IMG/VR virus record: IMGVR_UViG_3300037589_000013
Span: 1-52,352 of that record
Length of the DNA stretch: 52,352 bases
DNA from: a virus
Lineage: Duplodnaviria > Caudoviricetes
Direction: 5' to 3' (one strand)
Under the pieces are notes generated by a model. It was given only the letters and a program-made list of their open reading frames with translations. It searched no databases and had not been told where the DNA came from. Below, one piece after another: positions 10,515 through 43,605 of the stretch (the first letter of the stretch is position 1; the number at the start of each line of letters is the position of its first letter). The position numbers and the translations under genes were made by a program.

Positions 10515-12143
10515 ATGCACGTTCGCGCCAAATTGCTCGCATCAACCGCGTTCGCCAATCCTGGCGCTACAACGCTCGCACAACACAACAAAACGCCTGA
10601 TACCGCGTCTTTGGTTGCGGCTGTTGAAATGATCAATGATGTTGCAACAGTTGATAGTGATGAAATATTAAAGCGCTCACCTGACATTTCATCGATGCTT
10701 CCTTATTGGGATATGACAGACGATATTGTTGAAGGTTATGATGCTGTTAAGAATGCGGGTAAGAAATATTTACCGCAATTTGTTGATGAGGAAAAAGAAG
10801 ATTATGATTTACGTTTGGAATTAACAAAATTTACCAATGTATATCGTGATATTGTTGAAGGTTTGGCTGCAAAACCATTTGAAGAGGAAGTTACTTTTAT
10901 TGAAAGTGATGACAAAAAGGTTCCCGAAGAATTAAAAGAATTTGCAGAAAATGTAGATGGTTCCGGCAATAACCTTACTGTTTTTGCGTCATTGGCAATG
11001 TTCAATGGTGTAAATTCTGCAATTCATTGGTTGTTTATTGATTATCCGACTGTTGATCGTGAACGCATCAAAACCAAAGCTGATCAGAAACAAGCCGGAA
11101 TTCGCCCGTTTTGGTCGCACGTCTTAGGGCGTAATATTCTGGAAGCAAAAACCAAAATTGTTAATGGAAAGCAAATGCTTTCTTACATTCGCATTTTCGA
11201 GCCTGGCGTTACTGAACCGGACCGCGTGCGAATTTTTCAATTGAATGATGATGGCAGAGTTGTTTGGGAACTTTATGAAAAATTACCCAATGAGAAAAAA
11301 TTTATTCGTGTTGACAACGGAATATTGTCAATTTCGATAATTCCTCTTGTTCCGTTCATTACCGGGCGGCGCGATGGAACAACATTCAAAATATTTCCTG
11401 CAATGCGCGATGCAGCCGATTTGCAGATTAAACTATATCAATCAGAAAGCGCGCTTGAATACATTTCGAATTTGGCCGGTTATCCTATGCTTGCCGCGAA
11501 CGGTATGCGCCCGGAAATGCAAGCTGATGGAAGGACACCAAAGAAATTAAAGCGCGGACCATCACGCGTGTTGTGGGGTATTCCTGATGGTAATGGTAAT
11601 TCCGGTTCATGGGCTTACGTTGAACCGTCCGCGCAATCGATGGAATTTCTTGAAAAGAAAAATACCAATACCAAGCAAGATTTGCGTGAATTAGGACGTC
11701 AACCATTGACCGCTAATTCCGGTAATTTAACGGTTATCACTACTGCATACGCGGCGGGCAAATCCAAATCGGCGGTTTCCGTATGGGCACTTGCTCTGAA
11801 AGATGCGCTTGAAAATGCGTTTTTGATTACCGCAATGTACATGTCAATTAACGATTATGAACCGGAAATTAATGTTTACACTGAATTTGACGAATTCATG
11901 GATGGTAATTCGGACATTGAAGCGTTGCGGGCGGCACGCGATAGCGGCGACCTTTCACAAGAAACATATTGGAGTGAATTGAAGCGCCGCAAGGTTCTTT
12001 CACCTGAATTTGATAAAGAGGAAGAACGCGAACGGTTGTTGAAAGAAGTTCCCGCCGATGATACAAATCTGGATATTAATTTAGATGATGATTTAGACCC
12101 GAATGCGACACCGGGCAATGTGCCGCGCAACAATGCCGTTTAG
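10515..12143 (+). CDS. Portal protein (DUF4055-like)
   Basis: Follows TerL; YLPQF..E..EDY..RL....F.N, IPLVPF; AAGGA RBS before ATG 10515. Confidence 0.9.
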   Translation: MHVRAKLLASTAFANPGATTLAQHNKTPDTASLVAAVEMINDVATVDSDEILKRSPDISSMLPYWDMTDDIVEGYDAVKNAGKKYLPQFVDEEKEDYDLRLELTKFTNVYRDIVEGLAAKPFEEEVTFIESDDKKVPEELKEFAENVDGSGNNLTVFASLAMFNGVNSAIHWLFIDYPTVDRERIKTKADQKQAGIRPFWSHVLGRNILEAKTKIVNGKQMLSYIRIFEPGVTEPDRVRIFQLNDDGRVVWELYEKLPNEKKFIRVDNGILSISIIPLVPFITGRRDGTTFKIFPAMRDAADLQIKLYQSESALEYISNLAGYPMLAANGMRPEMQADGRTPKKLKRGPSRVLWGIPDGNGNSGSWAYVEPSAQSMEFLEKKNTNTKQDLRELGRQPLTANSGNLTVITTAYAAGKSKSAVSVWALALKDALENAFLITAMYMSINDYEPEINVYTEFDEFMDGNSDIEALRAARDSGDLSQETYWSELKRRKVLSPEFDKEEERERLLKEVPADDTNLDINLDDDLDPNATPGNVPRNNAV

Positions 12144-12176
12144 CAGGATAGCAGCGGCGCAACAGTTGGATAACTG
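12143..12176 (+). promoter_or_regulatory. GGAT double-hairpin element upstream of the scaffold gene
   Basis: GCAGGATAGC-A-GCGGCGC-AA-CAGTTGGATAACTG. Confidence 0.6.
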
Positions 12177-12181
12177 CAAAA

Positions 12182-13003
12182 ATGAAAACGATCATCAAGA
12201 CGCATCTTGCCATTCTCGCCACTGCTGCATTTGACCCAGGCTCGCCGGGCTGGAAAGTTGATGCAGACGGTAAACTTGAATTGAAGGACAGCAACCCGAT
12301 TTACGTTGACGCCAGTGGACGTGAAGCGGTCGTTGCATCCGATACAATTTCCAAATTGAACGCGGAAGCAAAGTCACATCGTGAGCGTGCCGAAAAAGCG
12401 GAAGGCGCTTTGAAAGCGTTTGAGGGTGTGGACCCGGAAGCAGCACGCAAAGCAATCGATACCGTCAAGAATATCGACGCCAAACAATTGATTGACGCTG
12501 GTGAAGTCGAGAAGGTACGCGAGGCGGTCAAAGCTGAATTCACCGCTCAATTATCGGAAAAAGATAAGGCAATTGCAGAACGCGACGGAACAATTGCAGA
12601 TATGCAAATTGGCGGTATTTTCAAAGGTTCAACGTTCTTGCGTGAGAAAGTCGCGTTGCCGCTCGATATGGTTGAAAGTTATTTCAAGTCAAATTTCAAG
12701 CTGGATAACGGCAAGCCGACAGCCTATTACAAGGACGGCAATCCGGTTATGTCAAAAGAGCCTGGCAATATCGGAAATCCTGCATCGCCCGATGAGGCAT
12801 TGCGCTTGCTGATTGAAGCACATCCGCAAAAGGATATGCTGTTGAAAGCCGATGATAGCAGCGGAAGCGGAAGTGGCGGCGCTGGTGGCGGTCGTGGTGG
12901 CGGTCGTCAAATGAGGCGCGCTGACTTTGAGAAGCTGGCACCAGCGGCACAAGCGGAAGCGGCAAAGAAACAGCAGGCCGGTGAAATGGTAATCGTGGAT
13001 TAA
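12182..13003 (+). CDS. Capsid scaffolding protein
   Basis: Position before the capsid gene; coiled coil LNAEAKSHRERAEKAE, LIDAGEVEKV; Gly-rich linker and short C-terminal domain. Confidence 0.85.
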   Translation: MKTIIKTHLAILATAAFDPGSPGWKVDADGKLELKDSNPIYVDASGREAVVASDTISKLNAEAKSHRERAEKAEGALKAFEGVDPEAARKAIDTVKNIDAKQLIDAGEVEKVREAVKAEFTAQLSEKDKAIAERDGTIADMQIGGIFKGSTFLREKVALPLDMVESYFKSNFKLDNGKPTAYYKDGNPVMSKEPGNIGNPASPDEALRLLIEAHPQKDMLLKADDSSGSGSGGAGGGRGGGRQMRRADFEKLAPAAQAEAAKKQQAGEMVIVD

Positions 13004-13030
13004 TTCCCTTTCAATTAATCCACTGATCGC

Positions 13031-13070
13031 ACGGGCGGAACTTTGGCGGGGTTCCGCCCGTTGCTGTTTT
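13031..13070 (+). terminator. Intrinsic terminator, possibly bidirectional
   Basis: 11-bp stem ACGGGCGGAAC/GTTCCGCCCGT between convergent genes. Confidence 0.75.
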
Positions 13071-13290
13071 ATTTTTCATTGAGTAATTCAAACCAAAGCC
13101 TAATGAGTGTTTCAACGCGTTCTTTTGCGGCTTTGGATGACGTGAATTCTTTCATTGATTTCACTCCAGGCAAGAAAACGCGCGCTTGCCATTTCTCCAA
13201 CTTGTACACTTTGCCGACAATAACCGAACCAATCATTGCGATTTCGCCGCTTTCATTTCGGTTAAGATTACGCGTCCAGATGGGTTTCAT
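13069..13290 (-). CDS. Hypothetical protein
   Basis: Antisense cassette; ATGA coupling. Confidence 0.7.
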   Translation of the reverse strand: MKPIWTRNLNRNESGEIAMIGSVIVGKVYKLEKWQARVFLPGVKSMKEFTSSKAAKERVETLIRLWFELLNEK

Positions 13291-13463
13291 CGCGTCACTT
13301 CTTTTCGTTTCCGTAAATCTGCAATTACCTTGTCTTGATCTTTGTTATAAATATCAGCGACAAGACAGGCGGTTACGGAAATTGAACCGAATTCATCATC
13401 AAGCCATTCCGTATCATCGTTGTCGAGCAACCATTGCAACGCGGCTTTATATCCCATTTTCAT
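13287..13463 (-). CDS. Hypothetical protein (MKMGYKAALQWL...)
   Basis: GGAG RBS; start refined from the ORF track. Confidence 0.7.
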   Translation of the reverse strand: MKMGYKAALQWLLDNDDTEWLDDEFGSISVTACLVADIYNKDQDKVIADLRKRKEVTR

Positions 13464-13467
13464 TGTT

Positions 13468-13653
13468 CTAACTCCACACTGCAAACATGTTATCGCGCTG
13501 CATCCACAAAACAGCCTTGCCGTTTGCGACGTTGACAACGCGCGCCAACATACCGTTGATTTTAACCCACTGTCCGCGCAAGTAATTTTCAACCTGCGAT
13601 GCAATCGGGCGGTTGCGGTCGATATAGACGGTTTTAACATACAACTTACGCAT
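13468..13653 (-). CDS. Hypothetical protein
   Basis: AAGGGAG RBS; promoter TTGACA-N17-TACATC at 13691-13719. Confidence 0.7.
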   Translation of the reverse strand: MRKLYVKTVYIDRNRPIASQVENYLRGQWVKINGMLARVVNVANGKAVLWMQRDNMFAVWS

Positions 13654-13715
13654 GGGTAAATCTCCCTTAATTTGTGTGCGTGTTTAATTAGATGTAATTG
13701 TTGTTGTGGATTGTG

Positions 13716-13970
13716 TCAATACCATTTCAGCGTATTTTTTGTTTTGATGAGTTCGTTTCGGAATTCCTCGCTAAATTCCGAACCATCGCAATCATATTCA
13801 CGAAGTGTCGGACCCATGCCCGGCTTTCCTTCAAACGATCCACCTTTTCCGGTTGCGGTTTCATATACGCGGAAATGATAATTTCCCTTGCGCCCTTCAC
13901 ACCGAACATATGCGCCGGTTACAAGTTCCGGGCTGTAGCTCTTGGATGTGTAAATGATTGTATTAGTCAT
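13716..13970 (-). CDS. Hypothetical protein
   Basis: AAGGGA RBS downstream of the repeated promoter element. Confidence 0.7.
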   Translation of the reverse strand: MTNTIIYTSKSYSPELVTGAYVRCEGRKGNYHFRVYETATGKGGSFEGKPGMGPTLREYDCDGSEFSEEFRNELIKTKNTLKWY

Positions 13971-13983
13971 TGTCGTGTTTCCC

Positions 13984-14035
13984 TTGCTGTTGATTGTTTA
14001 TCGTATGTTTCGTTTCTAATTGCAACACTTATTTT
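13984..14035 (-). promoter_or_regulatory. 52-bp repeated promoter element, copy 2
   Basis: 46/52 identical to 7831-7882; TTGCAA-N17-GATAAA. Confidence 0.75.
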
Positions 14036-14053
14036 TATCCACACTAGAGCCGG

Positions 14054-14082
14054 TTGACCATCGCGGCAAATCAGCGTATTTA
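14054..14082 (+). promoter_or_regulatory. Promoter for the major capsid gene
   Basis: TTGACC-N17-TATTTA. Confidence 0.65.
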
Positions 14083-14096
14083 TCGAACATTGCCAA

Positions 14097-14133
14097 GCAT
14101 TGGATAATGCGCGGCGCGCGGGTTGGATAACCC
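14097..14133 (+). promoter_or_regulatory. GGAT double-hairpin element in the capsid 5' UTR
   Basis: GCATTGGATAATGC-GCGGCGC-GC-GGGTTGGATAACCC. Confidence 0.7.
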
Positions 14134-14208
14134 AACAAACCAGTTTTTCCGAAAACCGGCGCGCGTCCTGCATTTGTCAACCGCGCCACAAACACAAAGG
14201 CGCGCAAA

Positions 14209-15453
14209 ATGCGTAGTTCACTCATTCTCCAAAATTCGACGGTGCTTGCTGCACCTTACATTCTTTCCGGCGCTTACGGTTCCGCAAACACGCTCACCAA
14301 TCTGATTGGCGATCTGTATGCGGCGCTTGATGTGGTGTCGCGCGAGCTTGTCGGCATGATCCCTGGCGTTACTCGCAACGCATCCGCCGAACGTGCCGCG
14401 CTTGGTCAGGCGGTCACATGGCCGGTTGCGCCATCCATGGGCACATTCAATGTTACCCCTGCAATGGCTGTTCCCGAACCTGCGGACCGCACCATCGGTA
14501 ACGACAGCATGACAATCACCAAATCCAAAGGTGTTGAATTCGGCTGGACCGGTGAAGAACAGCGCGGTTTGAACGTCCAGGGACCGGGCTATCTGTCAAT
14601 TCAGGCTGATATGTTTGCACAAGGTCTGCGCACGCTCACCAATGAAATTGAAGCTGATCTTGTCGCGGCTGCGGCGGCTGCGGCAACCGTGGCAACCGGC
14701 ACGGCCGGAACTACCCCGTTTGCTTCCAACGTTGGTGACAGCGCGCAAGTTCGCAAACTGCTTGATGACGCGGGCGCGCCGGGTTCGGAACGTTCGTTGA
14801 TTATCGACACCACATCAGGTGCGGCACTTCGTACCCTGGCAAACTTGACCAAGGTCAATGAAGCCGGAACCAACATGACGTTGCGTGATGGTCAGTTGCT
14901 CGATTTGAACGGTCTTTCGATCCGTGAAACCGGGCAACCTTACACGGTCGCATCACACGGCACGGCGGCAAATGCGACAACCAACACGGCAGGTTATGCC
15001 AAAGGCGCAACAACCATCACCCTAGCGAGCGCCGGAACGGGAACGATCATTGCGGGCGATTTCATTTCGTTTGCCGGTGACAGCCGTTCTTATCGTGTTG
15101 TGACTGGTGACGCGGATGTTTCGGGCGGTGGTACGGTTGTCATTGCCGAACCGGGCTTGCAGGAAGCCATTCCGGCGGCTGCAACGGCGATCACTGTCAA
15201 CCGCCCGTCTTCCGGTGCCTCTACTCGCAATATCGCTTTCTCGCGCGATGCGATGGCGCTGGCAGCACGTGCACCGGCCTTACCGGAAGGCGGCGACTTG
15301 GCAATGGACCGCATGTTGCTGACCGATCCGCGATCCGGCCTTGTGTTTGAGGTTTCGCTTTATCCTGGTTATCGCAAGGTGCGCGCGGAAGTCGCAATGT
15401 CGTGGGGCGTCAAGGCCATCAAGCCCCCGCATATCGTCGCATTGCTCGGTTAA
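14209..15453 (+). CDS. Major capsid protein (P22 gp5-like HK97 fold with insertion domain)
   Basis: ANTLTNLI.DLY.ALDVVSRELVG, AFSRDA..LAARAP, DPRSGL.FEV..Y, WGVKAIKP; strong codon bias. Confidence 0.92.
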   Translation: MRSSLILQNSTVLAAPYILSGAYGSANTLTNLIGDLYAALDVVSRELVGMIPGVTRNASAERAALGQAVTWPVAPSMGTFNVTPAMAVPEPADRTIGNDSMTITKSKGVEFGWTGEEQRGLNVQGPGYLSIQADMFAQGLRTLTNEIEADLVAAAAAAATVATGTAGTTPFASNVGDSAQVRKLLDDAGAPGSERSLIIDTTSGAALRTLANLTKVNEAGTNMTLRDGQLLDLNGLSIRETGQPYTVASHGTAANATTNTAGYAKGATTITLASAGTGTIIAGDFISFAGDSRSYRVVTGDADVSGGGTVVIAEPGLQEAIPAAATAITVNRPSSGASTRNIAFSRDAMALAARAPALPEGGDLAMDRMLLTDPRSGLVFEVSLYPGYRKVRAEVAMSWGVKAIKPPHIVALLG

Positions 15454-15471
15454 TCCGATCAGATGAACAAC

Positions 15472-15505
15472 ACGGCGCGGAACTTTGACGGTTCTGCGCC
15501 GTTTT
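15472..15505 (+). terminator. Intrinsic terminator after the capsid gene
   Basis: 12-bp stem ACGGCGCGGAAC/GTTCTGCGCCGT followed by a T run. Confidence 0.75.
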
Positions 15506-15533
15506 GGTAAAATGACGTGTCGGGATAAAATAA

Positions 15534-15806
15534 ATGCAAAACGCACAAGAAAAACCGCAATCTAATGATGTCGCCACCGAACTGCGGGCAAGAATTGTTG
15601 CCTTGGAAACATGGAAAATAGAGCGAACCGTTGAAAGCGCTCGCCATGATGAACGTTGGAAACATTTGGATGTCAGATTTAATCAGCTTGACAAAGACAT
15701 CAAAGCAGTAAGCACAATTCTAAGTCGGCTCAATTGGCTTGTCATAAGTGGAATTGTCGTTGCTGCAATAGCTTTTGTCATTGGTGGCGGTTTCGCAAAA
15801 ATTTAA
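15534..15806 (+). CDS. XhlA-like membrane protein (coiled coil plus C-terminal TM helix)
   Basis: RIVALE...LDVRFNQLD then WLVISGIVVAAIAFVIGGG. Confidence 0.65.
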   Translation: MQNAQEKPQSNDVATELRARIVALETWKIERTVESARHDERWKHLDVRFNQLDKDIKAVSTILSRLNWLVISGIVVAAIAFVIGGGFAKI

Positions 15807-15825
15807 CGCAAAGAAAGGAAATGCA

Positions 15826-16188
15826 ATGTCACGTGTACCAACAATGATAATCGATACTGAAAACGGACCGGTTACAATCAACCGTTCGGCTTTCGATCCT
15901 GAAACAATGCGAGAGTATGGCGCAACGGTCGATCCGGCTCCAACGGTCGATCCGGCTCCAACGGTCGATCCGGCTCCAACGGTCGATCCGGTTGATCCGG
16001 TTGATCCGGTTGATCCGGCTCCAGACGCCACCACGGTACCGCAACAGATGCTTGTTACAAAGAAGGGTAAGAAGTTCATTGTTGTTGACGAAAACGCCAA
16101 CCCCATCGAACATGCGGACATTGAAGCGGACGGATATGCAAAAGAAGCTGATGCATGGTCGGCAATTATGAACGTCCAGGGGAAATAA
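15826..16188 (+). CDS. Head-associated protein with a Pro/Asp repeat linker
   Basis: AAGGA RBS; INRSAFDPET; position after the capsid gene. Confidence 0.65.
   Translation: MSRVPTMIIDTENGPVTINRSAFDPETMREYGATVDPAPTVDPAPTVDPAPTVDPVDPVDPVDPAPDATTVPQQMLVTKKGKKFIVVDENANPIEHADIEADGYAKEADAWSAIMNVQGK
15923..16023 (+). repeat. Coding tandem repeats: 18-bp unit x about 3.8, then 9-bp unit x 3
   Basis: (CAACGGTCGATCCGGCTC)n then (TTGATCCGG)3, encoding TVDPAP and VDP units. Confidence 0.95.
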
Positions 16189-16189
16189 A

Positions 16190-16699
16190 ATGACAACTTA
16201 CACCGGCGCAACAATTGATGGTTTCGATGATTATTTTGAAGCGCGCGGGGTTGAACGACCAGCAACGATGACGGATGAAATTGTTACCGCCGCGTTGCTG
16301 GTTGCAACCGAATGGATCGATAGCGTTTATGGACCGTCATTTATTGGTTATAAAACAGGCGGATTTAGACAGTCTCGCGAATGGCCGCGCACAATGGCTG
16401 TTGTTGATACTTTCCCTTATTTCGCATTTCCAACCGATGAAATTCCAGATCAATTAATTAACGCGGTTTATGAAGCCGCGTGGAGACACGCCAGCACACC
16501 GGGTTCACTGCTTGCCGACTACACACCTGCAAAATATAAATCTGTTTCAATTGACGGTGCTGTTTCGGTTGAATATGCGGCGTTTAATTCCGCGTCCGAA
16601 ATTCAAAAATCATTCCCTCGCATTGATCAATTGTTGTCGGATTTGCTCGACAGCGGAAAATCAGTTTCAAGCTATAGCGGTGCTACATCGCGGGCATGA
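16190..16699 (+). CDS. Head-tail adaptor (DnaT-like)
   Basis: ALLVATEWID...F.G.K....Q..EWPR...IP.....A.YEAA; synteny. Confidence 0.8.
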   Translation: MTTYTGATIDGFDDYFEARGVERPATMTDEIVTAALLVATEWIDSVYGPSFIGYKTGGFRQSREWPRTMAVVDTFPYFAFPTDEIPDQLINAVYEAAWRHASTPGSLLADYTPAKYKSVSIDGAVSVEYAAFNSASEIQKSFPRIDQLLSDLLDSGKSVSSYSGATSRA

Positions 16700-16730
16700 A
16701 AAAACCCGCTACACTGGAAATGTAGCGGGT
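16699..16730 (-). terminator. Intrinsic terminator of the antisense gene
   Basis: 10-bp stem ACCCGCTACA/TGTAGCGGGT flanked by an A6 run. Confidence 0.75.
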
Positions 16731-16779
16731 CAGTTGGGCTAGGTGCGGGAGGGATTGCCCTAGCCTTGGGGAGTGTGGA

Positions 16780-17265
16780 TTACTTGACGCGGAACACACG
16801 CACGGTTGCGCTGTCGGGGTCAGTCTTGGGGTCAACGTCATGCGCTTCCCATTCCTTGATGCGTTCGGTCACACCGACCGGCGTTCCCTGCGCGACAACG
16901 TTTCCGTTGGCGTCCTTGACCGGCTCACCGGGCTTGGTGATCTGATTTCCGTCCTCACCCAGTTTGGGGCGCTGGTTGGTGTCGCGGTTGTTTTCCTTGC
17001 TGACCGTGGCGCTAATCTGGCGCTTGGTCTTGTTTTTCAGACCGATCGATGCACCAATTTCAAGTTCATGCATCTTTTCGACCAGGGGCGACTTTGCACC
17101 ACGGCGAGCGGTAACAGGCGGCTTGATGTCGGTGCGAACGGCGGTGAATTCCGGTGCAACGCGGTCTTCTGCTTTCGGCGCACCGGCCTTGCCTTTCTTG
17201 GCGGTGGTTGCGGGAGCGGTTGCAGCAAATGCGGCGGCACCAGTGATTGCAACAATATTCTTCAT
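16780..17265 (-). CDS. Basic protein, putatively DNA-binding and highly expressed
   Basis: AAAGGA RBS; promoter TTGACA-N17-TAATTG at 17315-17343; codon bias like the capsid gene; IKPP...RRG....ELEIGAS. Confidence 0.7.
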   Translation of the reverse strand: MKNIVAITGAAAFAATAPATTAKKGKAGAPKAEDRVAPEFTAVRTDIKPPVTARRGAKSPLVEKMHELEIGASIGLKNKTKRQISATVSKENNRDTNQRPKLGEDGNQITKPGEPVKDANGNVVAQGTPVGVTERIKEWEAHDVDPKTDPDSATVRVFRVK

Positions 17266-17342
17266 TTGGCTTTCCTTTCGGGTTGGTTTAGAATGCTTGT
17301 CAGTGAATGATTGACAATTAGAACGTTGAAGGATGTGTGTCA

Positions 17343-17714
17343 ATGACTTTTTATGAGGAAATGCAAAATTTAACGCGTGACCTATTATCTGATAAGGATT
17401 TCAAACAAGGAACCATTGAATATGTGCGACTTGTGCCGGGTTCCGGTCCGATTGATAATCCAGGGCCTTCAACACCTGATAAAACTGAATTGCCGGGCGG
17501 TGTTGTCAAAGGTGTTTCGTTCAAATATGTCAATGATGGTTTGGCGCTATCGACAGATTTAACCGTGACTGTTCCGGTTCATCCTGATATTACCCCTGAT
17601 ATGCGCGATTTCATTGATATTGATGGTGTACGCCATAAGATTGTGCAAGATATTTCATCACCAGCGGGCGGAACGCGTGTTGTGTGGAAATTCATTGTTC
17701 GCAAGGGTTCCTAA
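17343..17714 (+). CDS. Head closure / stopper protein
   Basis: MTFYEEMQ.....LL; synteny in the neck module. Confidence 0.7.
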   Translation: MTFYEEMQNLTRDLLSDKDFKQGTIEYVRLVPGSGPIDNPGPSTPDKTELPGGVVKGVSFKYVNDGLALSTDLTVTVPVHPDITPDMRDFIDIDGVRHKIVQDISSPAGGTRVVWKFIVRKGS

Positions 17715-17717
17715 CCG

Positions 17718-18812
17718 ATGACCATCAATAATCGCCGTAAACTTGAAAAGCTTATTGATCTTTTTCAACCTCGTATTCGGGATGCGTTTTTAGCGGCGGT
17801 GCGTGACGTTGTGGATAACGTCATTTTGGTTGATGTGATCCGGGCGATTGAAAACGGTGATCCAATCCGCGCATTCGAATTGCTAGGTTTCAATCAATCC
17901 GCAATGCGCCCGATCACTCGCATGATCGAAGACGCGTTTGAAACTGGTGGTATGTTAACCGGTGAAGGTTTTCCAAAATATTTAAATACGCCGTCCGGCC
18001 GTGCGGTGTTTCGTTTCGATGTGCGCAACAGTCGAGCGGAAGCATGGTTGCGCGATCATTCGTCATCGCTGGTGACGAATATTACAAACGATGTGCGCGA
18101 AATTGTCAGGGTAACAATGGAACGCGGAATGTTGGCAGGTGAAAACCCGCGCCGCACCGCTCTTGAGTTGGTCGGGCGCATCGATCCAACTACAAAAGTT
18201 AGAACTGGTGGCACGATTGGACTTACACCAGGACAAGAAAAATGGGTTGCGAATACGCGGCGCGATTTGAACGACATGCGAGACATTGCCGCACGTGTTC
18301 GTAGTGGTGAATATTCAACTGCACAAGCGCGCGAGGAATTGAGCAAGAATAATTATTTCTCGCGTGCATTACGTCGCAAGGGTTCCGATAATCAAATTGT
18401 CAAATCGATTGTTTCCGGTAAGGATTTAGATGTTAACACGGTTGACCGGCTGGTGATGACATACCGCAACAACGCGTTACGCTATCGTGGCGAGGTTATC
18501 GGGCGCACAGAAGCACTCCAGGCGCTCAATCGGTCGGAATATGAAGCGCACATGCAAGCGGTCGATACTGGCGCGCTACGGCGGCAAGATGTCAAACGGA
18601 TATGGGATAGCGCGGGTGATGGTCGAGTGCGTGACACACATCGCGTAATGGACGGACAAGCGGTTTCAATGGATGAACCGTTCATCAGCCCGTCCGGTTC
18701 ACGAATGATGTATCCGGGTGACACATCATTGGGTGCGGACGCGGCGGAAACAATTCAATGTCGTTGCCGCGTCCGCATTGAAGCCGATTTCTTGGCGCAA
18801 TGGAATGATTAA
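17718..18812 (+). CDS. Head morphogenesis protein (MuF/SPP1 gp7-like)
   Basis: IGRTE, WDSAGDGRVRDTH..MDG, YPGD, ETIQCRC. Confidence 0.9.
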   Translation: MTINNRRKLEKLIDLFQPRIRDAFLAAVRDVVDNVILVDVIRAIENGDPIRAFELLGFNQSAMRPITRMIEDAFETGGMLTGEGFPKYLNTPSGRAVFRFDVRNSRAEAWLRDHSSSLVTNITNDVREIVRVTMERGMLAGENPRRTALELVGRIDPTTKVRTGGTIGLTPGQEKWVANTRRDLNDMRDIAARVRSGEYSTAQAREELSKNNYFSRALRRKGSDNQIVKSIVSGKDLDVNTVDRLVMTYRNNALRYRGEVIGRTEALQALNRSEYEAHMQAVDTGALRRQDVKRIWDSAGDGRVRDTHRVMDGQAVSMDEPFISPSGSRMMYPGDTSLGADAAETIQCRCRVRIEADFLAQWND

Positions 18813-19168
18813 TAATTACAGTCGCAAAAACTGAAATGTCGCCCGCAAGTCCAACATGATTGATCATCAAAATCATCATAAGCATAATCAATTTTAGACA
18901 TTTCGTCTTCCTTTTGCAATTTCAAATCATATTCATCATATTCACGCCAATACGGATCATCATATTCATCATCAATTTCAATCTGGTTCATCAACCATTC
19001 ATGATCGCTGATTTGCTGCATTGCGTCACGCATGGCGGCGCGGTCGGCTTTGCGTTTTTCAATCCTGGCGCGGGCGCGGCGGTCTTGTTTGCTGCGATAA
19101 ATCTTTTCCAGATAAACCGACCCGAAACCATCACCACAATCAAGAATGTATTGGCGGCGATATGTCAT
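18809..19168 (-). CDS. Acidic hypothetical protein with a C-terminal Cys cluster
   Basis: AACGGGAG RBS; CWTCGRHFSFCDC. Confidence 0.7.
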   Translation of the reverse strand: MTYRRQYILDCGDGFGSVYLEKIYRSKQDRRARARIEKRKADRAAMRDAMQQISDHEWLMNQIEIDDEYDDPYWREYDEYDLKLQKEDEMSKIDYAYDDFDDQSCWTCGRHFSFCDCNY

Positions 19169-19212
19169 TTCAATAACTCCCGTTAATTAGTTTGCGATTG
19201 GATAATTGTATA

Positions 19213-19452
19213 TTATTTTCCAACCGTCAACATGATTGGTTGCGGATTGTTGCCGATTACACTGACAATTATTTTCGCACCTTGATTGATACGCTCGATT
19301 TCATCCGGTGTCGGTTCCCATGCGGTGTGCATCATATTGACAGTTTCACCGCTTGCCGGATCAATAATCGTTTCGTCACGAATGGGCAAACCTAGATAAC
19401 CCTGCGATTGACCACAAACGCGCGTTGTTCCTTCAATTCTTGCGATTAACAT
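19213..19452 (-). CDS. Hypothetical protein
   Basis: GYLGLPIRD...TAWEPTPDE..R...G..I; overlaps the upstream stop. Confidence 0.75.
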   Translation of the reverse strand: MLIARIEGTTRVCGQSQGYLGLPIRDETIIDPASGETVNMMHTAWEPTPDEIERINQGAKIIVSVIGNNPQPIMLTVGK

Positions 19453-20582
19453 CCTGATATCTCCAAAGGTAAGCCATCCGGCACAATTGACGGCAACATT
19501 TCAAGTGCCATTTTTTCCAAGTCACCACGCGGAATATTCTTACTCAAATGTTTCACATAAAATTCATTCCGTCCGCATGGATGATGTGAATTGAATGCTG
19601 CAACTGGAAACCCTTGTGTTGACCAGATTGAACGGCATTCATCCGATTGCGAGACACAAGCGAAATTGAAGCGTCGTAAGAATGATGGATGACCTAAAGC
19701 AAAAACCACATCGTCAATATTCAGCCGTTCACCGGCATGTTTGAGCGTAACGGCGGTTTGCGCTCCAGGTGAACCGCTAGAGGACATTGCTTGCATGGTT
19801 ACGCTTACAATTGCGCAACTGTAACCTTGGCGCTCCAATATATCAGCTATTGCAGCGACCACAGCGGCGCGCACAATGAGATTTTCAGCGTTAATATATG
19901 CGGAAGCCGTGTTTTCGACAAACAACGTTATGACGCGTCTTCCCGGCTTTTTTGGGCGCTTAATCATGTGCATCGGGTTGCCAGCAAGCAAACGACCAAC
20001 ATTCACGTTTCCACCCGCAACCGCATATGACCGGCGGCGGGCGGTCGCATGTTCAAGATTGAGGAATTCAAGCACGCGGGCGGCGTTCTGGACGCCATCG
20101 CGCCAAGCATCGCGGGCAAGATTGATTGCGGCACTCATGTTCGGCGTACCATGCCAATTTTCGCCACCAGACCAACCCGCGTCACGCTTTCCGGCCCGCT
20201 TTTCAGTTGGTATTTCTTCAATGAATTTGACCATGTTTCCGAGATTGGAAAACCCAAAAAATGCGAGTGGATTTTTATCTTTGAAATAATTTAAATATGT
20301 CTGATCATCACCATAAATTGCGATTGATCCGTTACGCGTTTTCGGTGTTTCCCGACTATCGATGATGAGTTTGAAAGCGTCAACTTTCGGCAATTCTGTT
20401 GACCGGCGCGGCGTTTCACCATCACCAGTCACCAAACAACCGGGCAATTGTTTCAGTTGCTCGATTTCTTGCGGTGTGGCGGAATAGAACAGCCAATTTT
20501 TTTCATCACTATTCCACACACCGCCCAATTGCTTTAGGCGGTCTTTATGGTCAAATGTGCGTCCGCTAACAGTTATGGTCAT
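19446..20582 (-). CDS. vWA-like (CobT-like) protein with an extra N-terminal domain
   Basis: GGNVNVGRLLAGNP..M, VITLFVENTAS, AIADILE..G, LK..GE.L, HPSFLRR; downstream of an AAA ATPase. Confidence 0.7.
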   Translation of the reverse strand: MTITVSGRTFDHKDRLKQLGGVWNSDEKNWLFYSATPQEIEQLKQLPGCLVTGDGETPRRSTELPKVDAFKLIIDSRETPKTRNGSIAIYGDDQTYLNYFKDKNPLAFFGFSNLGNMVKFIEEIPTEKRAGKRDAGWSGGENWHGTPNMSAAINLARDAWRDGVQNAARVLEFLNLEHATARRRSYAVAGGNVNVGRLLAGNPMHMIKRPKKPGRRVITLFVENTASAYINAENLIVRAAVVAAIADILERQGYSCAIVSVTMQAMSSSGSPGAQTAVTLKHAGERLNIDDVVFALGHPSFLRRFNFACVSQSDECRSIWSTQGFPVAAFNSHHPCGRNEFYVKHLSKNIPRGDLEKMALEMLPSIVPDGLPLEISGC

Positions 20583-20791
20583 TTATTCCAGATACCGTCA
20601 ACGTATTTCCCAGAACAATTAAAATGACCTAAATCCATGGGATAACATTTTAATTCAGGCAAATAATCGCGTAAAATCAAATTGCGAATTGTTGTGCAAT
20701 GTTCAATTTCCATCATGCAAGCAATATCAGCCGTGCCGCTATCCATATATTTCGCGGTTGGATATCGGTTTGTTGCGTTACGATATTTCAT
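20579..20791 (-). CDS. Hypothetical protein (MKYRNATN...)
   Basis: AAGGA RBS; ATGA coupling. Confidence 0.65.
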   Translation of the reverse strand: MKYRNATNRYPTAKYMDSGTADIACMMEIEHCTTIRNLILRDYLPELKCYPMDLGHFNCSGKYVDGIWNK

Positions 20792-21009
20792 GTTATTGTT
20801 TCCTTTCCATCGTTGCGAGGATGAATTAAATTTGTGGTCATATTGTCGATTTGCAAAATTAATTCCGGCAAATCTTTGGAAGGTCTCCAACCTGCGCAAT
20901 CCGGGTAATGTTTTTGGTGCAAAGATTTCGCCAAACTAAGCGCAAAAAACATTGCGTCTTCGTGATCTTGCGCAATACGTTTGTCTTTGCGTGTGTAAAA
21001 TATTCTCAT
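20788..21009 (-). CDS. Hypothetical protein
   Basis: ATGA coupling to the ATPase gene. Confidence 0.65.
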   Translation of the reverse strand: MRIFYTRKDKRIAQDHEDAMFFALSLAKSLHQKHYPDCAGWRPSKDLPELILQIDNMTTNLIHPRNDGKETIT

Positions 21010-22112
21010 TTCACTTTCTCCCGGTCTGTTTCACTCATTCCTTTGAACAGATAACTTTCTTCAACTTCTTTCCAGTCATCACCGCTGGCAAGTGCTGCAC
21101 TTCCCATAATTATTGCACGTGTTGAAACAACATGTCTAATATTTTTTTCTGCAATACGTTTGCGCAATTGCCAAACGTGTTCCAACCATTTGATGTTTCC
21201 GTTGCAGAAAGCGCGCTCCAGGTTCAAATCATAATCAACTGTTACGAACGCGAAACGGTCAAGGCTTGCCGCATCCAATTCGTTGCGTCCGATATAAACG
21301 CGGTCCGCGCCCGTCCCGAACGTGTTTGCTGTGGCGACCATTCGGAACGAGGGTGAACGAGGTATTGGCGCGTTTCGGTCAGGAAATGTAGCATATCCAT
21401 TTGCCAAGGCTGCATTTGCGGCCAATAGCGCGCTTGCGTCCCATGCGTCGATTTCATCAGCGAGCCAAACCCCGCCGAATTCAAAAGCTGTTCGGAATGG
21501 CGTTGAATGATATTTTCCGTAACCATCGATAAACCCCGTTAATTCATGTGTGTCGTTGATTGTTGATGTGATGTAAAACGGCAAATTCAACGCCTTTGCA
21601 GCCTGTTGCCCAATCGTCGTTTTTCCACAACCAGCCGGACCAACCATCATAACAGGATGATTGAGCGCACATTTGCGGATAACGTTTTCCGTTCGATAAT
21701 GCTGTAATCCATCAAGCGTTACGTTTCCTTGTGGGCTGGTTACGATCAATTGACGCGGTGCGAGTTGTTCAAGCGTTTCCTTGATTAGTCGTTTAGTTGT
21801 TTCACCGCTCAATATTTCTTGCTGCATTTCCGAACGCGCAATGCGTCGTGTAAGTGAAACCTCAAATCCTGGCGCGTTAACAGCTTCCAACACTTTAATA
21901 ATTGTGTCGTTTATATCCGGCGCAACACTTGGCGCGGGCGTGTCGTTGTGGTATATGTTCGCGAGTTCAACCGCTTTCATGCGGTGTACATCAAACGGCT
22001 TGTAACCGCGTAAAATCGCCCATTCGCGCAAAAGAGGAATTTCACTATTAATTAAAATATAATCCTCGCGCGGACCTAATTGCTTTTCAATTTCTTCGAT
22101 TGTAAGTTTCAT
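21006..22112 (-). CDS. MoxR/CobS-like AAA+ ATPase
   Basis: GPAGCGKT (Walker A), WLADEID (Walker B), ATANTFG (sensor 1), LDAASLDRF (arginine finger), STR (sensor 2). Confidence 0.92.
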   Translation of the reverse strand: MKLTIEEIEKQLGPREDYILINSEIPLLREWAILRGYKPFDVHRMKAVELANIYHNDTPAPSVAPDINDTIIKVLEAVNAPGFEVSLTRRIARSEMQQEILSGETTKRLIKETLEQLAPRQLIVTSPQGNVTLDGLQHYRTENVIRKCALNHPVMMVGPAGCGKTTIGQQAAKALNLPFYITSTINDTHELTGFIDGYGKYHSTPFRTAFEFGGVWLADEIDAWDASALLAANAALANGYATFPDRNAPIPRSPSFRMVATANTFGTGADRVYIGRNELDAASLDRFAFVTVDYDLNLERAFCNGNIKWLEHVWQLRKRIAEKNIRHVVSTRAIIMGSAALASGDDWKEVEESYLFKGMSETDREKVK

Positions 22113-22147
22113 ATTATTTTATCCATGTGGTCAAATAGGTTCATATC

Positions 22148-22567
22148 ATGGTGGAAAAGTCATTTCAAGCGCAGGTTGACAGGATTATTGTCAACACCGA
22201 TAAGCGTTTGAATTTAGTAATGAAACAATCATTGCAAACCGTCATCAACGAAATGCAGACGCCAACCGGCAAAGGTGGAAAAATGCGAGTGGATACCGGG
22301 TTTCTCCGGGCGTCCGGTCAATCGTCATTAAACGGTATGCCAACCGGTCCAAGTCGCAAACCACCAGAAGGCGAATTTGATTGGAATGCGAGCGATACAA
22401 CCGCCACAATTGGAAAGATGAAATTCGGTTCAACTTTTTTCTTTGGTTGGACTGCAAATTATGCGCGAATTCGTGAAACTTATGATGGCTTTATGTCGAG
22501 CGCATTGCAGAATTGGCAACAAACAGTAGATAAAGTAGTTGCAGAAGCAAAAAGGCGGTTTTCATGA
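22148..22567 (+). CDS. Neck / tail completion protein (HK97 gp10-like)
   Basis: VDTGFLRAS, ANYA...E; synteny. Confidence 0.8.
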   Translation: MVEKSFQAQVDRIIVNTDKRLNLVMKQSLQTVINEMQTPTGKGGKMRVDTGFLRASGQSSLNGMPTGPSRKPPEGEFDWNASDTTATIGKMKFGSTFFFGWTANYARIRETYDGFMSSALQNWQQTVDKVVAEAKRRFS

Positions 22568-22977
22568 TTGAACGCGAAATTTTACAAGCATTGCAAACCG
22601 CAACAATCAACGCGGTAAGTGCGTCAACCATGCCGCTTTTACCAATCAAAGCATTGGGGAGAACTTTTGACCCCCCTGGCGATGGTCGATGGTTGGAAAT
22701 TGTGCATATCCCCAACAATGTCATTGGTCAATTTTGGGCTGATGGCAAGACATATCGCGGTCTGTATCGCTTGATTTTACATTGGGGATTGGATGACGCG
22801 GGCGTTTATCAACCAATGGATGTCATAGCGTCTATCGCGGCTGGTTTTCCTAAAGGTTCGATCTTTCAAAATGGTTCGGTTTCCGTTAAAATTTACGATG
22901 AACCGGACCTTGTAGGGGTGATAGAGGCATCGCCCGAAACGTTGTATCCGGTAACAATCCGGTACATGTCATCATAA
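22564..22977 (+). CDS. Tail terminator protein
   Basis: FDPP.DG.WL, YRG......H, PVTIRY; directly before the tail tube gene. Confidence 0.75.
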   Translation: MIEREILQALQTATINAVSASTMPLLPIKALGRTFDPPGDGRWLEIVHIPNNVIGQFWADGKTYRGLYRLILHWGLDDAGVYQPMDVIASIAAGFPKGSIFQNGSVSVKIYDEPDLVGVIEASPETLYPVTIRYMSS

Positions 22978-22990
22978 AGGAACCGACACA

Positions 22991-23779
22991 ATGAAAAATA
23001 TGATCAACCTTGTTGCAGCAATGGCATTCGCGAATGCGAACGCGGCGTCACGCTTGTTTGTTTGCGCAACTCCGCAAAACACCGACTTAACCCAATCCGA
23101 ATACGAATTGTTGACATGGGTTGAAGTCAAGGGGATTGGTTCGCGCGGTGAAACCGGCAAACAGACCAATATTTTGACCTATGACACATGGGATACAACC
23201 GTTGTGCAGAAGGCCAAAGGTATGACCGATGCAGGTTCTCCGCCGGTTGAAGTTGCGCGCATTCCGACCGATCCCGGTCAAATCATCATGCGGGCGGCTG
23301 GTGCGGTCGGCAACAACAACAATTACGCGTTCAAGGAATTGCGTTCGGATGGTTTGGTTGCCGGTCAAGGTTCGGTTTTCTACAATCGCGGCTTGGTGAC
23401 AGGCCCGACGCGTCCAGGTGGACGAAATGAAGATTTTGACCTTGAGGTGTACACACTCGGATTGCAGCAAGAAGAAATCGTTGTAAATCCTGGCGCGGGT
23501 GGAACTGCACCAGCCTTTACGGCGCTTCCAGCCATCTCTGGTACGGAGGAAGACGGCGAAACTCTCACGCTTTCCAACGGCACGGTTACAGGTGATGCAA
23601 CCATCACCTATCAATACCAGTGGTTTGTCAACGGTGTTGCCAAGGCTGGTGAAACCGCAAGCACGCTCACGCTCGTTACTGCGGATGTTGGCAAATACAT
23701 TCAAGGTCGCGTTGTTGCGACAAACGACAGCGGTTATGCGGTCGGCTGGTCGGACGCAACCGGCGCAATTGGCGCTTGA
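22991..23779 (+). CDS. Major tail (tube) protein with a C-terminal Ig-like domain
   Basis: LTWVEV.......GETG, KAKG..DAG, DPGQ; C-terminal PAISGT...GETLT...YQYQW...DVGK.I...V.ATN. Confidence 0.9.
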   Translation: MKNMINLVAAMAFANANAASRLFVCATPQNTDLTQSEYELLTWVEVKGIGSRGETGKQTNILTYDTWDTTVVQKAKGMTDAGSPPVEVARIPTDPGQIIMRAAGAVGNNNNYAFKELRSDGLVAGQGSVFYNRGLVTGPTRPGGRNEDFDLEVYTLGLQQEEIVVNPGAGGTAPAFTALPAISGTEEDGETLTLSNGTVTGDATITYQYQWFVNGVAKAGETASTLTLVTADVGKYIQGRVVATNDSGYAVGWSDATGAIGA

Positions 23780-43043: not shown

Positions 43044-43604
43044 ATGACCAAAATTTGCACAAAATGTCAAATTTTAAAGGATGAAACGGAATTTAATAAA
43101 CGAACTATCAAGGGGCGTCAATACTATTATAGTTGGTGCAAAGCGTGTGCTAAAATAATGAATGTTGAATTGGCAAGAAAAAGAAAAGAAAAAAGAACAT
43201 TGGCAGAGCAAGAGAAAATTTCTCAAACATCAAGAGAATATTTTAAAATATATTATAGTACGGTCAGAGGTAGGGCAATCCATTTATTGAACAAAGCTAG
43301 AAATCGAGCACGCGGAAAATATGAATGTTCTGTTTCCGTAGATTTTATAATGAAAAAACTAGAAAATAACAAATGTGAACAAACCGGAATTGATTTAGAA
43401 TGGGAGAACACAAACGCGAAACTATCGAGAAATCCCCGATCCCCGTCTATTGACAGAATAGACGCAAACAAGGGATATACTGATGATAATGTACAAATTG
43501 TTTGTACATGGTATAATCTGGCAAAATCTCAATTAACCGATGCAGACATGTTAAAATTCTGTCAAAATGTTGTGGAATTCAACATGAAAAAGAGAGGTGA
43601 ATGA
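43044..43604 (+). mobile_element. Free-standing HNH-like homing endonuclease
   Basis: ICTKC...CKAC; PSIDRIDANKGYTDDNVQIVCTWYNLAK; AT-rich. Confidence 0.88.
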
Positions 43605-43605
43605 A

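What the first reader, a model, noticed from the sequence alone, without database searches (positions are those of the whole stretch)
10515..23040. Shared N-terminal leader ending in A-F/Y on five proteins: candidate protein-maturation system
Seen: portal MHVRAKLLASTAF|AN (10515), scaffold MKTIIKTHLAILATAAF|DP (12182), capsid MRSSLILQNSTVLAAPYILSGAY|GSAN (14209), antisense basic protein MKNIVAITGAAAF|AA (17265, minus strand) and tail tube MKNMINLVAAMAF|AN (22991). All begin M-basic-hydrophobic run-small-x-A-[F/Y]. None has a Met immediately after the motif, and four have a clear SD (the scaffold's is weak). As I recall, homologous capsid and tube proteins start near 'MANT', which is right after this segment. 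Known analogy: staphylococcal phage 80alpha capsid and scaffold carry leaders removed by the host Prp protease, whose normal substrate is ribosomal protein L27. Inference: a common cleavable tag licenses or times assembly. I recognised no prohead protease in the head module.
Basis: partly seen in the sequence, partly recalled or inferred. Interest (0 to 1): 0.85.

Follow-up and report, generated by a model that had tools for sequence, protein, structure and literature searches.

The report
Shared leader tag with phage peptidase
Up to five building-block proteins of this Rhizobium-type phage carry the same short N-terminal tag, and related phages keep or lose the tags together with one small phage protease gene, which points to a previously undescribed way of maturing both head and tail parts.

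Summary
Portal, scaffold, P22-like capsid, a minus-strand basic protein and the tail tube each start with M, a basic residue, an uncharged hydrophobic run and A-[F/Y]. Each start has its own Shine-Dalgarno site and no alternative start after the tag.

The tag is an add-on. 63 of 79 readable capsid relatives and 19 of the 120 closest tube relatives start with M directly at the residue after the aromatic. It recurs on the same proteins in the cultured Rhizobium phages P106B and RHph_X2_24.

New here: tags are present or absent together within a genome, and they track one gene. ORF 44235-44651 is a 138-aa protein with a papain/C39-like fold and invariant Cys and two His. Of 28 window ORFs found in all 9 tagged genomes compared, 27 are also in all 6 untagged sister genomes. 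Only this ORF is in none, and its two neighbours abut there.

Best reading (0.6): a phage-encoded leader peptidase removes the tags. Cleavage is inferred, not shown. The association rests on one evolutionary transition. The scan had separately noted this ORF as a candidate leader peptidase (e1-6338473).

The parts
10515..12143 (+). Portal protein (542 aa). Tag = residues 1-13 (10515-10553), ending A-F and followed by A-N.
   Evidence: ORF; DUF4055; phrog_145 portal, matching from residue 48; SD. Tagged in 7 (rule) to 10 (by eye) of 15 relatives.
12182..13003 (+). Scaffolding protein (273 aa). Tag = residues 1-17 (12182-12232), ending A-F and followed by D-P.
   Evidence: DUF6651; phrog_784/phrog_206 head scaffolding, with the profile starting after the tag. 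Tagged in 13 of 14 relatives. Untagged orthologs start M then the G/T-W-K motif.
14209..15453 (+). Major capsid protein, P22-coat-like (414 aa). Tag = residues 1-23 (14209-14277), ending A-Y and followed by G-S-A-N-T-L-T.
   Evidence: P22_CoatProtein; phrog_283, where residue 26 aligns to profile position 2. 63 of 79 readable homolog loci start M-A-N-T-L-T-like. Tagged in 15 of 15 close relatives (G018).
16780..17265 (-). Basic Ala/Pro/Lys-rich protein of unknown role (161 aa). Tag = residues 1-13 (17227-17265), ending A-F and followed by A-A.
   Evidence: SD. No Pfam or PHROG match. Atlas features give DUF7303-like at 0.89, a lead only. Orthologs in P106B (P106B_17), RHph_X2_24 and others. 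Tagged in 5 of 9; the rest start M-A/S-K without a tag.
22991..23779 (+). Major tail (tube) protein with a C-terminal Ig-like part (262 aa). Tag = residues 1-13 (22991-23029), ending A-F and followed by A-N-A-N-A-A-S.
   Evidence: phrog_158 major tail protein. It follows the tail terminator (PF13554). 101 of the 120 closest homologs are tagged and 19 start M-A-N-x-N-A.
44235..44651 (+). 138-aa papain-fold, C39-like cysteine peptidase candidate: the proposed leader peptidase. It lies between a 216-aa ORF and the helicase gene and overlaps both.
   Evidence: phrog_5845, no Pfam. 36 homologs with invariant C22, H101, H112. AF2 pLDDT 91. Foldseek PDB best hits are staphopain, a Josephin-like clippase, SpeB and IdeS, all weak. 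Atlas structure TM 0.65-0.66 to Peptidase_C39 clusters. Present in 9 of 9 tagged and 0 of 6 untagged backbone-sharing genomes. Profile search found it in 0 of 10 untagged records. Synteny checked.
43597..44247 (+). 216-aa ORF, upstream neighbour of the peptidase (context marker).
   Evidence: Conserved in 9 of 9 tagged and 6 of 6 untagged genomes. It directly abuts the helicase gene where the peptidase is missing.
44579..46297 (+). Superfamily-2 helicase, downstream neighbour of the peptidase (context marker).
   Evidence: ResIII, Helicase_C. Conserved in both groups.

Best explanation
The five proteins are made as precursors with a short N-terminal leader: M, a basic residue, an uncharged hydrophobic run of variable length, then A-[F/Y] followed mostly by A-N. 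The leader is recognised in the cytoplasm by a phage-encoded, stand-alone papain-fold (C39-like) cysteine peptidase, ORF 44235-44651. This gene sits in the replication operon, so the enzyme would be present before the late proteins are made.

The peptidase would cut at the aromatic residue, or one residue after it. That would release mature subunits whose N-termini equal those of untagged relatives. The leader most likely keeps abundant self-assembling subunits (capsid, scaffold, tube, often portal) soluble, chaperoned or unable to assemble until they are processed.

Shown: the leaders, their boundary, their all-or-none distribution, and their co-variation with the peptidase gene.
Inferred: catalysis, the scissile bond and the purpose.
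For: 1. The leader is an add-on with a sharp boundary. Untagged orthologs put the initiator M exactly at the aromatic position: 19 of 120 tubes, 63 of 79 capsids, and scaffolds.

2. The junction is conserved while the upstream length (9-33 aa) and sequence drift. That is the pattern of a processing site.

3. Tags are concordant within genomes. Of 32 loci where at least two of scaffold, capsid and tube were readable, 17 were tagged on all readable ones, 14 on none, and 1 was mixed (my reading; several are near-duplicates).

4. Gene-content contrast on one shared backbone. 28 window ORFs match all 9 tagged genomes. 27 of them match all 6 untagged genomes, and only 44235-44651 matches none. A profile search found it in 0 of 10 untagged records, 8 of them at least 90% complete.

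5. Synteny. The gene lies between the same two neighbours in 12 of 12 tagged genomes. Those neighbours overlap or lie 170-355 nt apart in 5 of 6 untagged genomes.

6. Unselected tagged genomes all have it: the window, RHph_X2_24, P106B, G001, G002 and G003, plus 7 of 7 tube-selected tagged records in which a hit could be expected. G039 lacks it because its contig ends inside that region.

7. G022 keeps the peptidase and has a tag only on the capsid.

8. The fold and the invariant Cys/His/His fit a cysteine peptidase of the fold class that removes leader peptides.

9. No other protease candidate was found in the window.
Against: - No protein-level data: cleavage was never observed.
- The backbone tree needs only one change of state. 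The co-variation is therefore a single evolutionary event, although that event comprises a gene deletion plus three precise leader deletions.
- Seven of the tagged genomes (G010-G022) were found through the peptidase, so they test only the direction from peptidase to tag.
- The peptidase family also occurs in unrelated phages. In 3 of 3 examined (AXL3, Mallos, Sansa) the structural proteins have no such tag. The family therefore has other roles or substrates.
- There is no sequence match to Pfam Peptidase_C39, and the PDB fold matches are weak (best E 7e-3, TM 0.40).
- C39 enzymes cut after Gly-Gly, which the leaders lack.
- An enzyme made early would clip the leaders at once, which leaves the purpose of the leader unclear.
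Confidence: 0.6

Rival explanations
1. The leaders are removed by a host protease, as Prp removes leaders from staphylococcal phage 80alpha capsid and scaffold. The phage peptidase would do something else.
For: There is a close formal parallel. Prp cuts between F and A and removes 13 and 14 residues. The same motif sits on the major tail protein of another staphylococcal phage (PMC5744158, passages read). The peptidase family also occurs in phages without tags.
Against: Tags and the phage peptidase gene are lost together while the rest of the backbone stays. Untagged and tagged sister phages would have to differ in host protease use by coincidence. No Prp gene is in the window. The Prp/L27-extension system is, from my recall, confined to Firmicutes and a few other phyla and is absent from Alphaproteobacteria. 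I could not test a Rhizobium genome here.
Confidence: 0.12
2. The leader is not cut. It is a retained hydrophobic tag that brings the subunits to a common place or partner (membrane surface, chaperone, each other). The Cys/His protein would act on the tag in some non-proteolytic way, or be linked to it only indirectly.
For: The tags are hydrophobic: the median best 8-residue Kyte-Doolittle mean is 2.17. In 80alpha the scaffold leader is needed for assembly but its cleavage is not (PMC5744158).
Against: The conserved part is the junction (A-[F/Y]-A-N), not the body of the tag. Untagged orthologs keep exactly the residues after the aromatic as their N-terminus. It is an inference that 9-33 extra hydrophobic residues on every tube and capsid subunit would be hard to fit in the virion. 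The invariant Cys and two His argue for catalysis.
Confidence: 0.13
3. The leaders are Sec-type signal peptides cut by host signal peptidase I.
For: They have the n-region, h-region and A-x-A look. 35 of 53 tags have small residues at -3 and -1 if the cut is one residue after the aromatic (tube 12 of 14, capsid 13 of 14, basic 5 of 5). Some relatives have 20-24-residue versions that look like textbook signal peptides.
Against: Scaffolds fit the rule in 0 of 13. Many tube leaders are only 9-11 residues long, with Lys two or three residues before the site. Head filling needs cytoplasmic DNA and terminase (established knowledge). The tags co-vary with a protein that has no hydrophobic N-terminus of its own. 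No signal-peptide predictor was available here.
Confidence: 0.05
4. Artefact: wrong start codons, or a chance resemblance of N-termini.
For: Gene callers often misplace starts. The ORF listing output shows longer TTG-started frames for the portal and the basic protein.
Against: There is an SD before each tagged ATG and no start after the tag. The tag is conserved in dozens of diverged genomes with 37-58% G+C. In untagged orthologs a stop codon lies a few codons upstream of the short start.
Confidence: 0.02

Closest known systems
Prp-dependent leader removal in Staphylococcus phage 80alpha and relatives (host protease Prp, whose cellular substrate is ribosomal protein L27)
   Same: A short shared N-terminal leader sits on non-homologous assembly proteins (capsid, scaffold, and in some phages the major tail protein). 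An aromatic residue is followed by Ala at the site. The protease is a cysteine enzyme acting in trans, outside the prohead. The head module has no prohead protease (PMC5744158, passages).
   Different: Here the associated enzyme is phage-encoded and has a papain/C39-like fold, not the Prp family (PF04327 absent). The hosts are Gram-negative (Rhizobium, Sinorhizobium). Up to five proteins are tagged, including portal and a basic protein. The leader is more hydrophobic and variable in length. No host protein with the motif is known.
Peptidase C39 domains of bacteriocin/microcin exporters (e.g. CvaB, ComA)
   Same: Predicted fold similarity is TM 0.65-0.66 over about 118 of 138 residues. The catalytic-type Cys lies at the start of a helix, followed by a strand His and a third polar residue. 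Their biological job is removal of N-terminal leader peptides.
   Different: There is no sequence-level match. The protein is stand-alone and cytoplasmic, not fused to an ABC transporter. The leaders lack the double-glycine site, and the substrates are large structural proteins.
Prohead proteases (HK97 gp4/S78, lambda C/S49, T4 gp21/S77, phiKZ gp175)
   Same: Several virion proteins are trimmed proteolytically at a shared short motif during morphogenesis.
   Different: Those enzymes are encoded in the head module, are co-assembled into the prohead and act only on head proteins. Here no such gene exists, the tube is also tagged, and the candidate enzyme gene lies in the replication operon.
T4 capsid targeting sequence on internal proteins
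   Same: A short N-terminal tag is shared by unrelated proteins and removed after use.
   Different: The T4 tag directs cargo into the prohead core and is cut by the prohead protease after Glu (recalled). Here the tag sits on the main structural subunits, including a tail protein.
Sec signal peptides
   Same: A basic start, a hydrophobic core, and small residues around an aromatic residue near the end.
   Different: The tags are often too short, the scaffold sites do not fit, and the substrates assemble in the cytoplasm.

Membership tests
Prp/L27-type leader system (80alpha) | Shared N-terminal leader on capsid and scaffold ending in an aromatic residue followed by Ala | tested here: met
   F or Y in 51 of 53 tags, and the next residue is A in 34 of 53.
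Prp/L27-type leader system (80alpha) | Protease is Prp (Pfam PF04327) | tested here: not met
   PF04327 gave no match in six frames of the window at E <= 10. The host genome could not be searched.
Prp/L27-type leader system (80alpha) | Motif copies the N-terminal extension of host ribosomal protein L27 | not testable with these tools
   No Rhizobium or Sinorhizobium genome handle was obtainable. The genome-contig scan returned only untagged prophage relatives in other classes.
Peptidase C39 (PF03412) | Sequence match to the family model | tested here: not met
   No match at E <= 10 in six frames. No Pfam hit for the ORF.
Peptidase C39 (PF03412) | Papain-like fold with Cys, His and a third polar residue in that order | tested here: met
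   Invariant C22, H101, H112 followed by D/N. AF2 model pLDDT 91 with Cys at the start of a helix. TM 0.65-0.66 to C39 clusters. PDB hits are to papain-fold peptidases but weak.
Peptidase C39 (PF03412) | Substrate leader ends in Gly-Gly (or Gly-Ala/Ser) | tested here: not met
   The tags end in A-[F/Y]. In 53 tags the residue before the aromatic is G in 3.
Sec signal peptide / signal peptidase I | Small uncharged residues at -3 and -1 of one consistent site | tested here: inconclusive
   35 of 53 fit if the cut is one residue after the aromatic, and 39 of 53 if before it. Scaffolds fit 0 of 13 for the first position.
Sec signal peptide / signal peptidase I | Hydrophobic core long enough for export | tested here: not met
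   Tube leaders of 9-11 residues in total occur in 19 of 101 tagged homologs, some with Lys near the site. No predictor was run.
Prohead protease maturation (S78, S49) | Protease gene of these families in the genome, usually between portal and capsid | tested here: not met
   PF04586 and PF01343 gave no match at E <= 1. The head-module ORFs have no protease family. S77 was not searched.

The most novel reading that the evidence does not exclude
A self-contained, phage-borne 'pro-subunit' system: one small trans-acting leader peptidase matures the main head and tail subunits alike. The leaders would serve as more than a folding aid. They could act as an assembly checkpoint, or as a cloak that keeps capsid, portal and tube precursors from being recognised by host defence sensors until they are processed. 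The whole system can be gained or shed as a unit.
Probability: 0.15. Interest if true: 0.9.

Novelty: new variant of a known kind. Interest (0 to 1): 0.8.

Why it matters
Tailed-phage maturation proteases are thought of as head-internal enzymes. The one known exception is a host enzyme in Gram-positive bacteria. Here the comparative data point to a third arrangement: a phage-encoded, cytoplasmic, C39-like peptidase paired with a portable leader on head and tail subunits, in phages whose P22-like head module has no protease.

The system is directly testable. Two tagged phages are in culture on harmless hosts (P106B on Rhizobium gallicum, RHph_X2_24 on Sinorhizobium americanum). Nature also supplies an untagged, peptidase-less sister clade as a control.

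Practical consequences:
- These leaders will be called signal peptides by automatic tools.
- Mature N-termini in structural work on this large metagenomic group will differ from the gene models. The group is large: 995 tube homologs at E <= 1e-5.
- A short tag with a dedicated small protease could be useful as a tool.

Tried and rejected
1. MoxR-type ATPase plus DUF7192 pair (19446-22112) as the partner of the leaders. Rejected: it is absent from the tagged genomes G002 and G003 and is not a core gene.

2. First co-occurrence test with untagged capsid relatives G005-G009. Uninformative, because they share only portal, scaffold and capsid with the window.

3. Records found through the peptidase. 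All belong to the tagged group. G010 looked like an exception, but its contig ends inside the portal gene.

4. G039 looked like a tagged genome without the peptidase. Its contig begins inside the helicase gene and lacks the whole region between the polymerase and the helicase, so it says nothing.

5. Complex prediction of the peptidase with the tube N-terminus gave no verdict. It counts neither way.

6. Profile search of the peptidase against PDB sequences gave only chance-level hits.

7. Literature. Searches found no description of such leaders in phages of Gram-negative bacteria.
- The TLS paper (passages) and the Jabs preprint (passage) were irrelevant.
- The original P106B paper is not in the library. 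I recall that it reports virion mass spectrometry, but I saw nothing of it.
- Supplementary files were not consulted.

8. Nucleotide-level repeat or RNA element as the cause. Rejected: the codons differ.

9. My first automatic leader caller was too strict and misplaced some starts. Counts in the report use the alignment-based version plus stated by-eye corrections. One search failed on a script bug and was fixed.

10. The genome-contig scan gave 6 untagged prophage relatives and no tagged one, so it gave no host genome to search.

Full report
WHAT THE WINDOW IS. The window is a whole IMG/VR virus record of 52,352 bases, estimated 95% complete. Its nearest cultured relatives are the Rigallicvirus phages P106B of Rhizobium gallicum and RHph_X2_24 of Sinorhizobium americanum. 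The late region encodes:
- small and large terminase;
- a DUF4055 portal;
- a DUF6651 scaffold;
- a P22-coat-like capsid protein;
- a DnaT_2-like adaptor;
- a Mu-F-like head protein;
- a tail terminator and a major tail protein, followed by chaperones and the tape measure.

THE OBSERVATION.
- Each tagged ATG is preceded by a Shine-Dalgarno site, weak for the scaffold.
- No in-frame start codon follows the tag closely.
- The five tags use different codons, so the likeness is in the peptide and not in the DNA.
- The tags cover residues 1-13 (portal), 1-17 (scaffold), 1-23 (capsid), 1-13 (basic protein) and 1-13 (tube).

THE TAG IS AN ADD-ON WITH A SHARP EDGE.
- PHROG profiles of capsid and scaffold begin right after the tag.
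- 81 capsid loci were examined: 80 viral loci plus RHph_X2_24. By my reading, 16 carry a tag, 63 start with M directly before the conserved A-N-T-L-T-like N-arm, and 2 are cut. All tagged ones are at least 59% identical to the window protein.
- Of the 120 closest tube homologs out of 995, 101 carry a tag of 9-24 residues (a few longer by doubtful start calls). The last tag residue is F 64, Y 33, H 2, other 2. The other 19 start M-A-N-x-N-A, with the initiator Met exactly where the aromatic residue sits in the others.
- Untagged scaffolds start M plus one or two residues before the conserved G/T-W-K motif.
- A distant tube homolog in RHph_X3_2 is also untagged.

CONSERVATION.
- P106B and RHph_X2_24 carry the tag on the same five proteins.
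- In 16 genomes or loci, with N-termini aligned per family, the tag is present on 14 of 15 tubes, 13 of 14 scaffolds and 5 of 9 basic proteins. It is on 15 of 15 capsids, where one was counted after correcting a start call. It is on 7 of 15 portals by rule and about 10 by eye.
- Over 53 tags, the junction is conserved while length and upstream sequence drift. The aromatic is F 30, Y 21, H 2. The residue before it is A in 44. The residue after it is A 34, D 7, N 5. The next one is N in 36. A basic residue lies in positions 2-6 in 51, and 48 tags have no acidic residue.
- This is how processing sites evolve.

NOT A SEC SIGNAL.
- The tags look like signal peptides, and some relatives have 20-24-residue versions.
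- But scaffold sites fit the small -3/-1 rule in 0 of 13.
- Many tube tags are only 9-11 residues long, with Lys close to the site.
- These proteins must assemble beside cytoplasmic DNA and terminase.

NO CLASSICAL PROTEASE.
- Prp, Peptidase_S78 and Peptidase_S49 models find nothing in six frames.
- Fifty ORFs scanned with Pfam gave only a cell-wall Peptidase_M15 (3047-3787), which is not conserved in relatives.

THE CANDIDATE ENZYME. ORF 44235-44651 (138 aa) has no Pfam family and belongs to phrog_5845.
- 36 homologs were found. In an alignment of 26 of them, C22, H101 and H112 (followed by D or N) are invariant.
- The AlphaFold model is confident (pLDDT 91) and puts the Cys at the start of a helix and the His residues on consecutive strands.
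- Foldseek against the PDB gives only weak matches, but they are to papain-fold cysteine peptidases: staphopain (E 7e-3, TM 0.40), a Josephin-like clippase, SpeB and IdeS.
- The ESM Atlas structure search gives TM 0.65-0.66 to Peptidase_C39 clusters.
- BFVD gives close structural kin in Caulobacter phages Sansa and CcrColossus, a mycobacteriophage and phiRSL1, plus a protein annotated as a C39 domain in a Bacillus phage.
- The Pfam C39 model itself does not match.

THE LINK BETWEEN TAGS AND ENZYME.
- Early tests were confounded. Untagged capsid relatives share almost nothing else with the window.
- The decisive material came from tube-anchored loci. Within a genome the tags are all-or-none. 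Of 32 loci with at least two readable proteins, 17 are tagged on all of them, 14 on none, and 1 is mixed (several are near-duplicates).
- Ten records with untagged tubes, eight of them at least 90% complete, have no match to the peptidase profile at E <= 1.
- Six of these genomes were fetched and compared with nine tagged ones. They share the whole backbone with the window: terminases, portal, scaffold, capsid, adaptors, tube, chaperones, tape measure, both polymerase parts, DUF2800, helicase and primase.
- Of 28 window ORFs of at least 85 aa that match all nine tagged genomes (four are opposite-strand shadow frames), 27 match all six untagged genomes. One, the peptidase, matches none.
- In 12 of 12 tagged genomes the gene lies between the 216-aa ORF and the helicase.
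- In the untagged genomes these two neighbours overlap (2 genomes), lie 170-355 nt apart measured between alignment ends (3 genomes), or lie 929 nt apart (1 genome).
- All six untagged genomes have untagged portal, scaffold, capsid and tube, often with a stop codon a few codons upstream of the short start. All six lack the basic-protein gene.
- Further tube-selected tagged records carry the gene: G034-G038, G040 and G053.
- G039 does not, but its contig breaks inside that region.
- G022 keeps the gene and has a tag on the capsid only.

LIMITS OF THAT LINK.
- A maximum-likelihood tree of seven untagged backbone proteins (3,245 columns) places the six untagged genomes as one fully supported clade. 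That clade sits beside the tagged G002 and G010 and inside a supported group with the window. The trait needs one change.
- With the midpoint root this is one loss. Rooting is not established.
- The association is therefore one evolutionary event. Its weight comes from four separate genetic changes falling on one branch (a gene deletion and three precise leader deletions) and from no other core gene changing.
- G002 and G010 already lack the portal tag and the basic protein. This suggests stepwise shedding that ends with the enzyme.
- Seven tagged genomes were found through the peptidase and test only one direction.
- The peptidase family is also present in unrelated phages. In AXL3, Mallos and Sansa, none of the annotated structural proteins I read has such a tag. 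The family is therefore older and broader than this use.

WHICH BOND IS CUT.
- The boundary of the untagged orthologs and the 80alpha precedent (F then A; PMC5744158) suggest cutting right after the aromatic residue. After Met removal this would give the same N-terminus as in untagged phages (inference).
- Papain-fold enzymes usually read a bulky hydrophobic residue two positions before the cut (established knowledge). That would place the cut one residue later and would explain why that next residue varies.
- I cannot decide between the two.

COMPARISON WITH WHAT IS KNOWN.
- The closest system is Prp-dependent leader removal in staphylococcal phages. It has the same logic, but a different enzyme family, a host rather than phage origin, and a narrower substrate set.
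- C39 domains share fold and task, but not sequence, site or context.
- Prohead proteases and the T4 targeting sequence differ in location and reach.
- My literature searches found no report of this arrangement.
- The P106B paper was not available.

VERDICT.
- The enzyme is most likely the phage's own C39-like peptidase (0.6), not a host Prp analogue.
- Cleavage and purpose remain to be shown.

Noticed in passing
window 29190-31451: The 753-aa tail fibre/tip protein (phrog_5616) begins with a long hydrophobic, signal-anchor-like segment ending A-H-A then F. It is not the same motif as the five tags. Relatives also have hydrophobic N-termini. This gene and its two upstream neighbours are absent from the untagged clade and from G002 and G014.
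   Followed up: partly
window 19446-22112 (minus strand): A MoxR/AAA_5 ATPase and a DUF7192 protein sit on the opposite strand inside the neck/tail region. They are present in RHph_X2_24, P106B, G001 and G004 but absent from G002, G003 and the untagged clade.
   Followed up: partly
window 36979-39614 (minus strand): Family-B DNA polymerase is encoded in two parts separated by an HNH-like ORF (37559-38179). The intervening ORF matches only 5 of 9 tagged and 0 of 6 untagged relatives, while both polymerase parts match all of them.
   Followed up: no
Peptidase homologs in NC_071036 (AXL3 gp47), NC_073030 (Mallos), NC_047756 (Sansa), Lu11, Noxifer, mycobacteriophages: The 138-aa Cys/His protein family is spread over unrelated phages of Proteobacteria and Actinobacteria that show no shared leader on the structural proteins. 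Its role there is unknown.
   Followed up: partly
G022 (IMG/VR record behind L133), capsid near 24880: A relative in which only the capsid protein keeps the leader, while tube, scaffold, portal and basic protein are untagged. The peptidase gene is retained.
   Followed up: partly
window 3047-3787 (minus) and 34107-35060 (plus): There are two different cell-wall enzymes: a Peptidase_M15 protein and an N-acetylmuramidase with a peptidoglycan-binding domain. The M15 gene has no match in the relatives compared.
   Followed up: no
window 28738-29193: A GNAT acetyltransferase gene lies inside the tail-tip gene block. It is not among the ORFs shared by most relatives.
   Followed up: no
window 15775-16188: A 137-aa protein after the capsid gene contains a tandem V-D-P-A-P-T-type repeat. 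It has weak matches only.
   Followed up: no
L099-L101 (RHph_X2_24), record position 45071-45379: A 102-aa ORF begins with a full-length signal-peptide-like segment whose end resembles the leader junction (T-A-F-A then D). It is possibly a genuine exported protein.
   Followed up: no
window 451-1428: A C-5 cytosine DNA methylase gene, shared with some tagged relatives and all six untagged ones.
   Followed up: no
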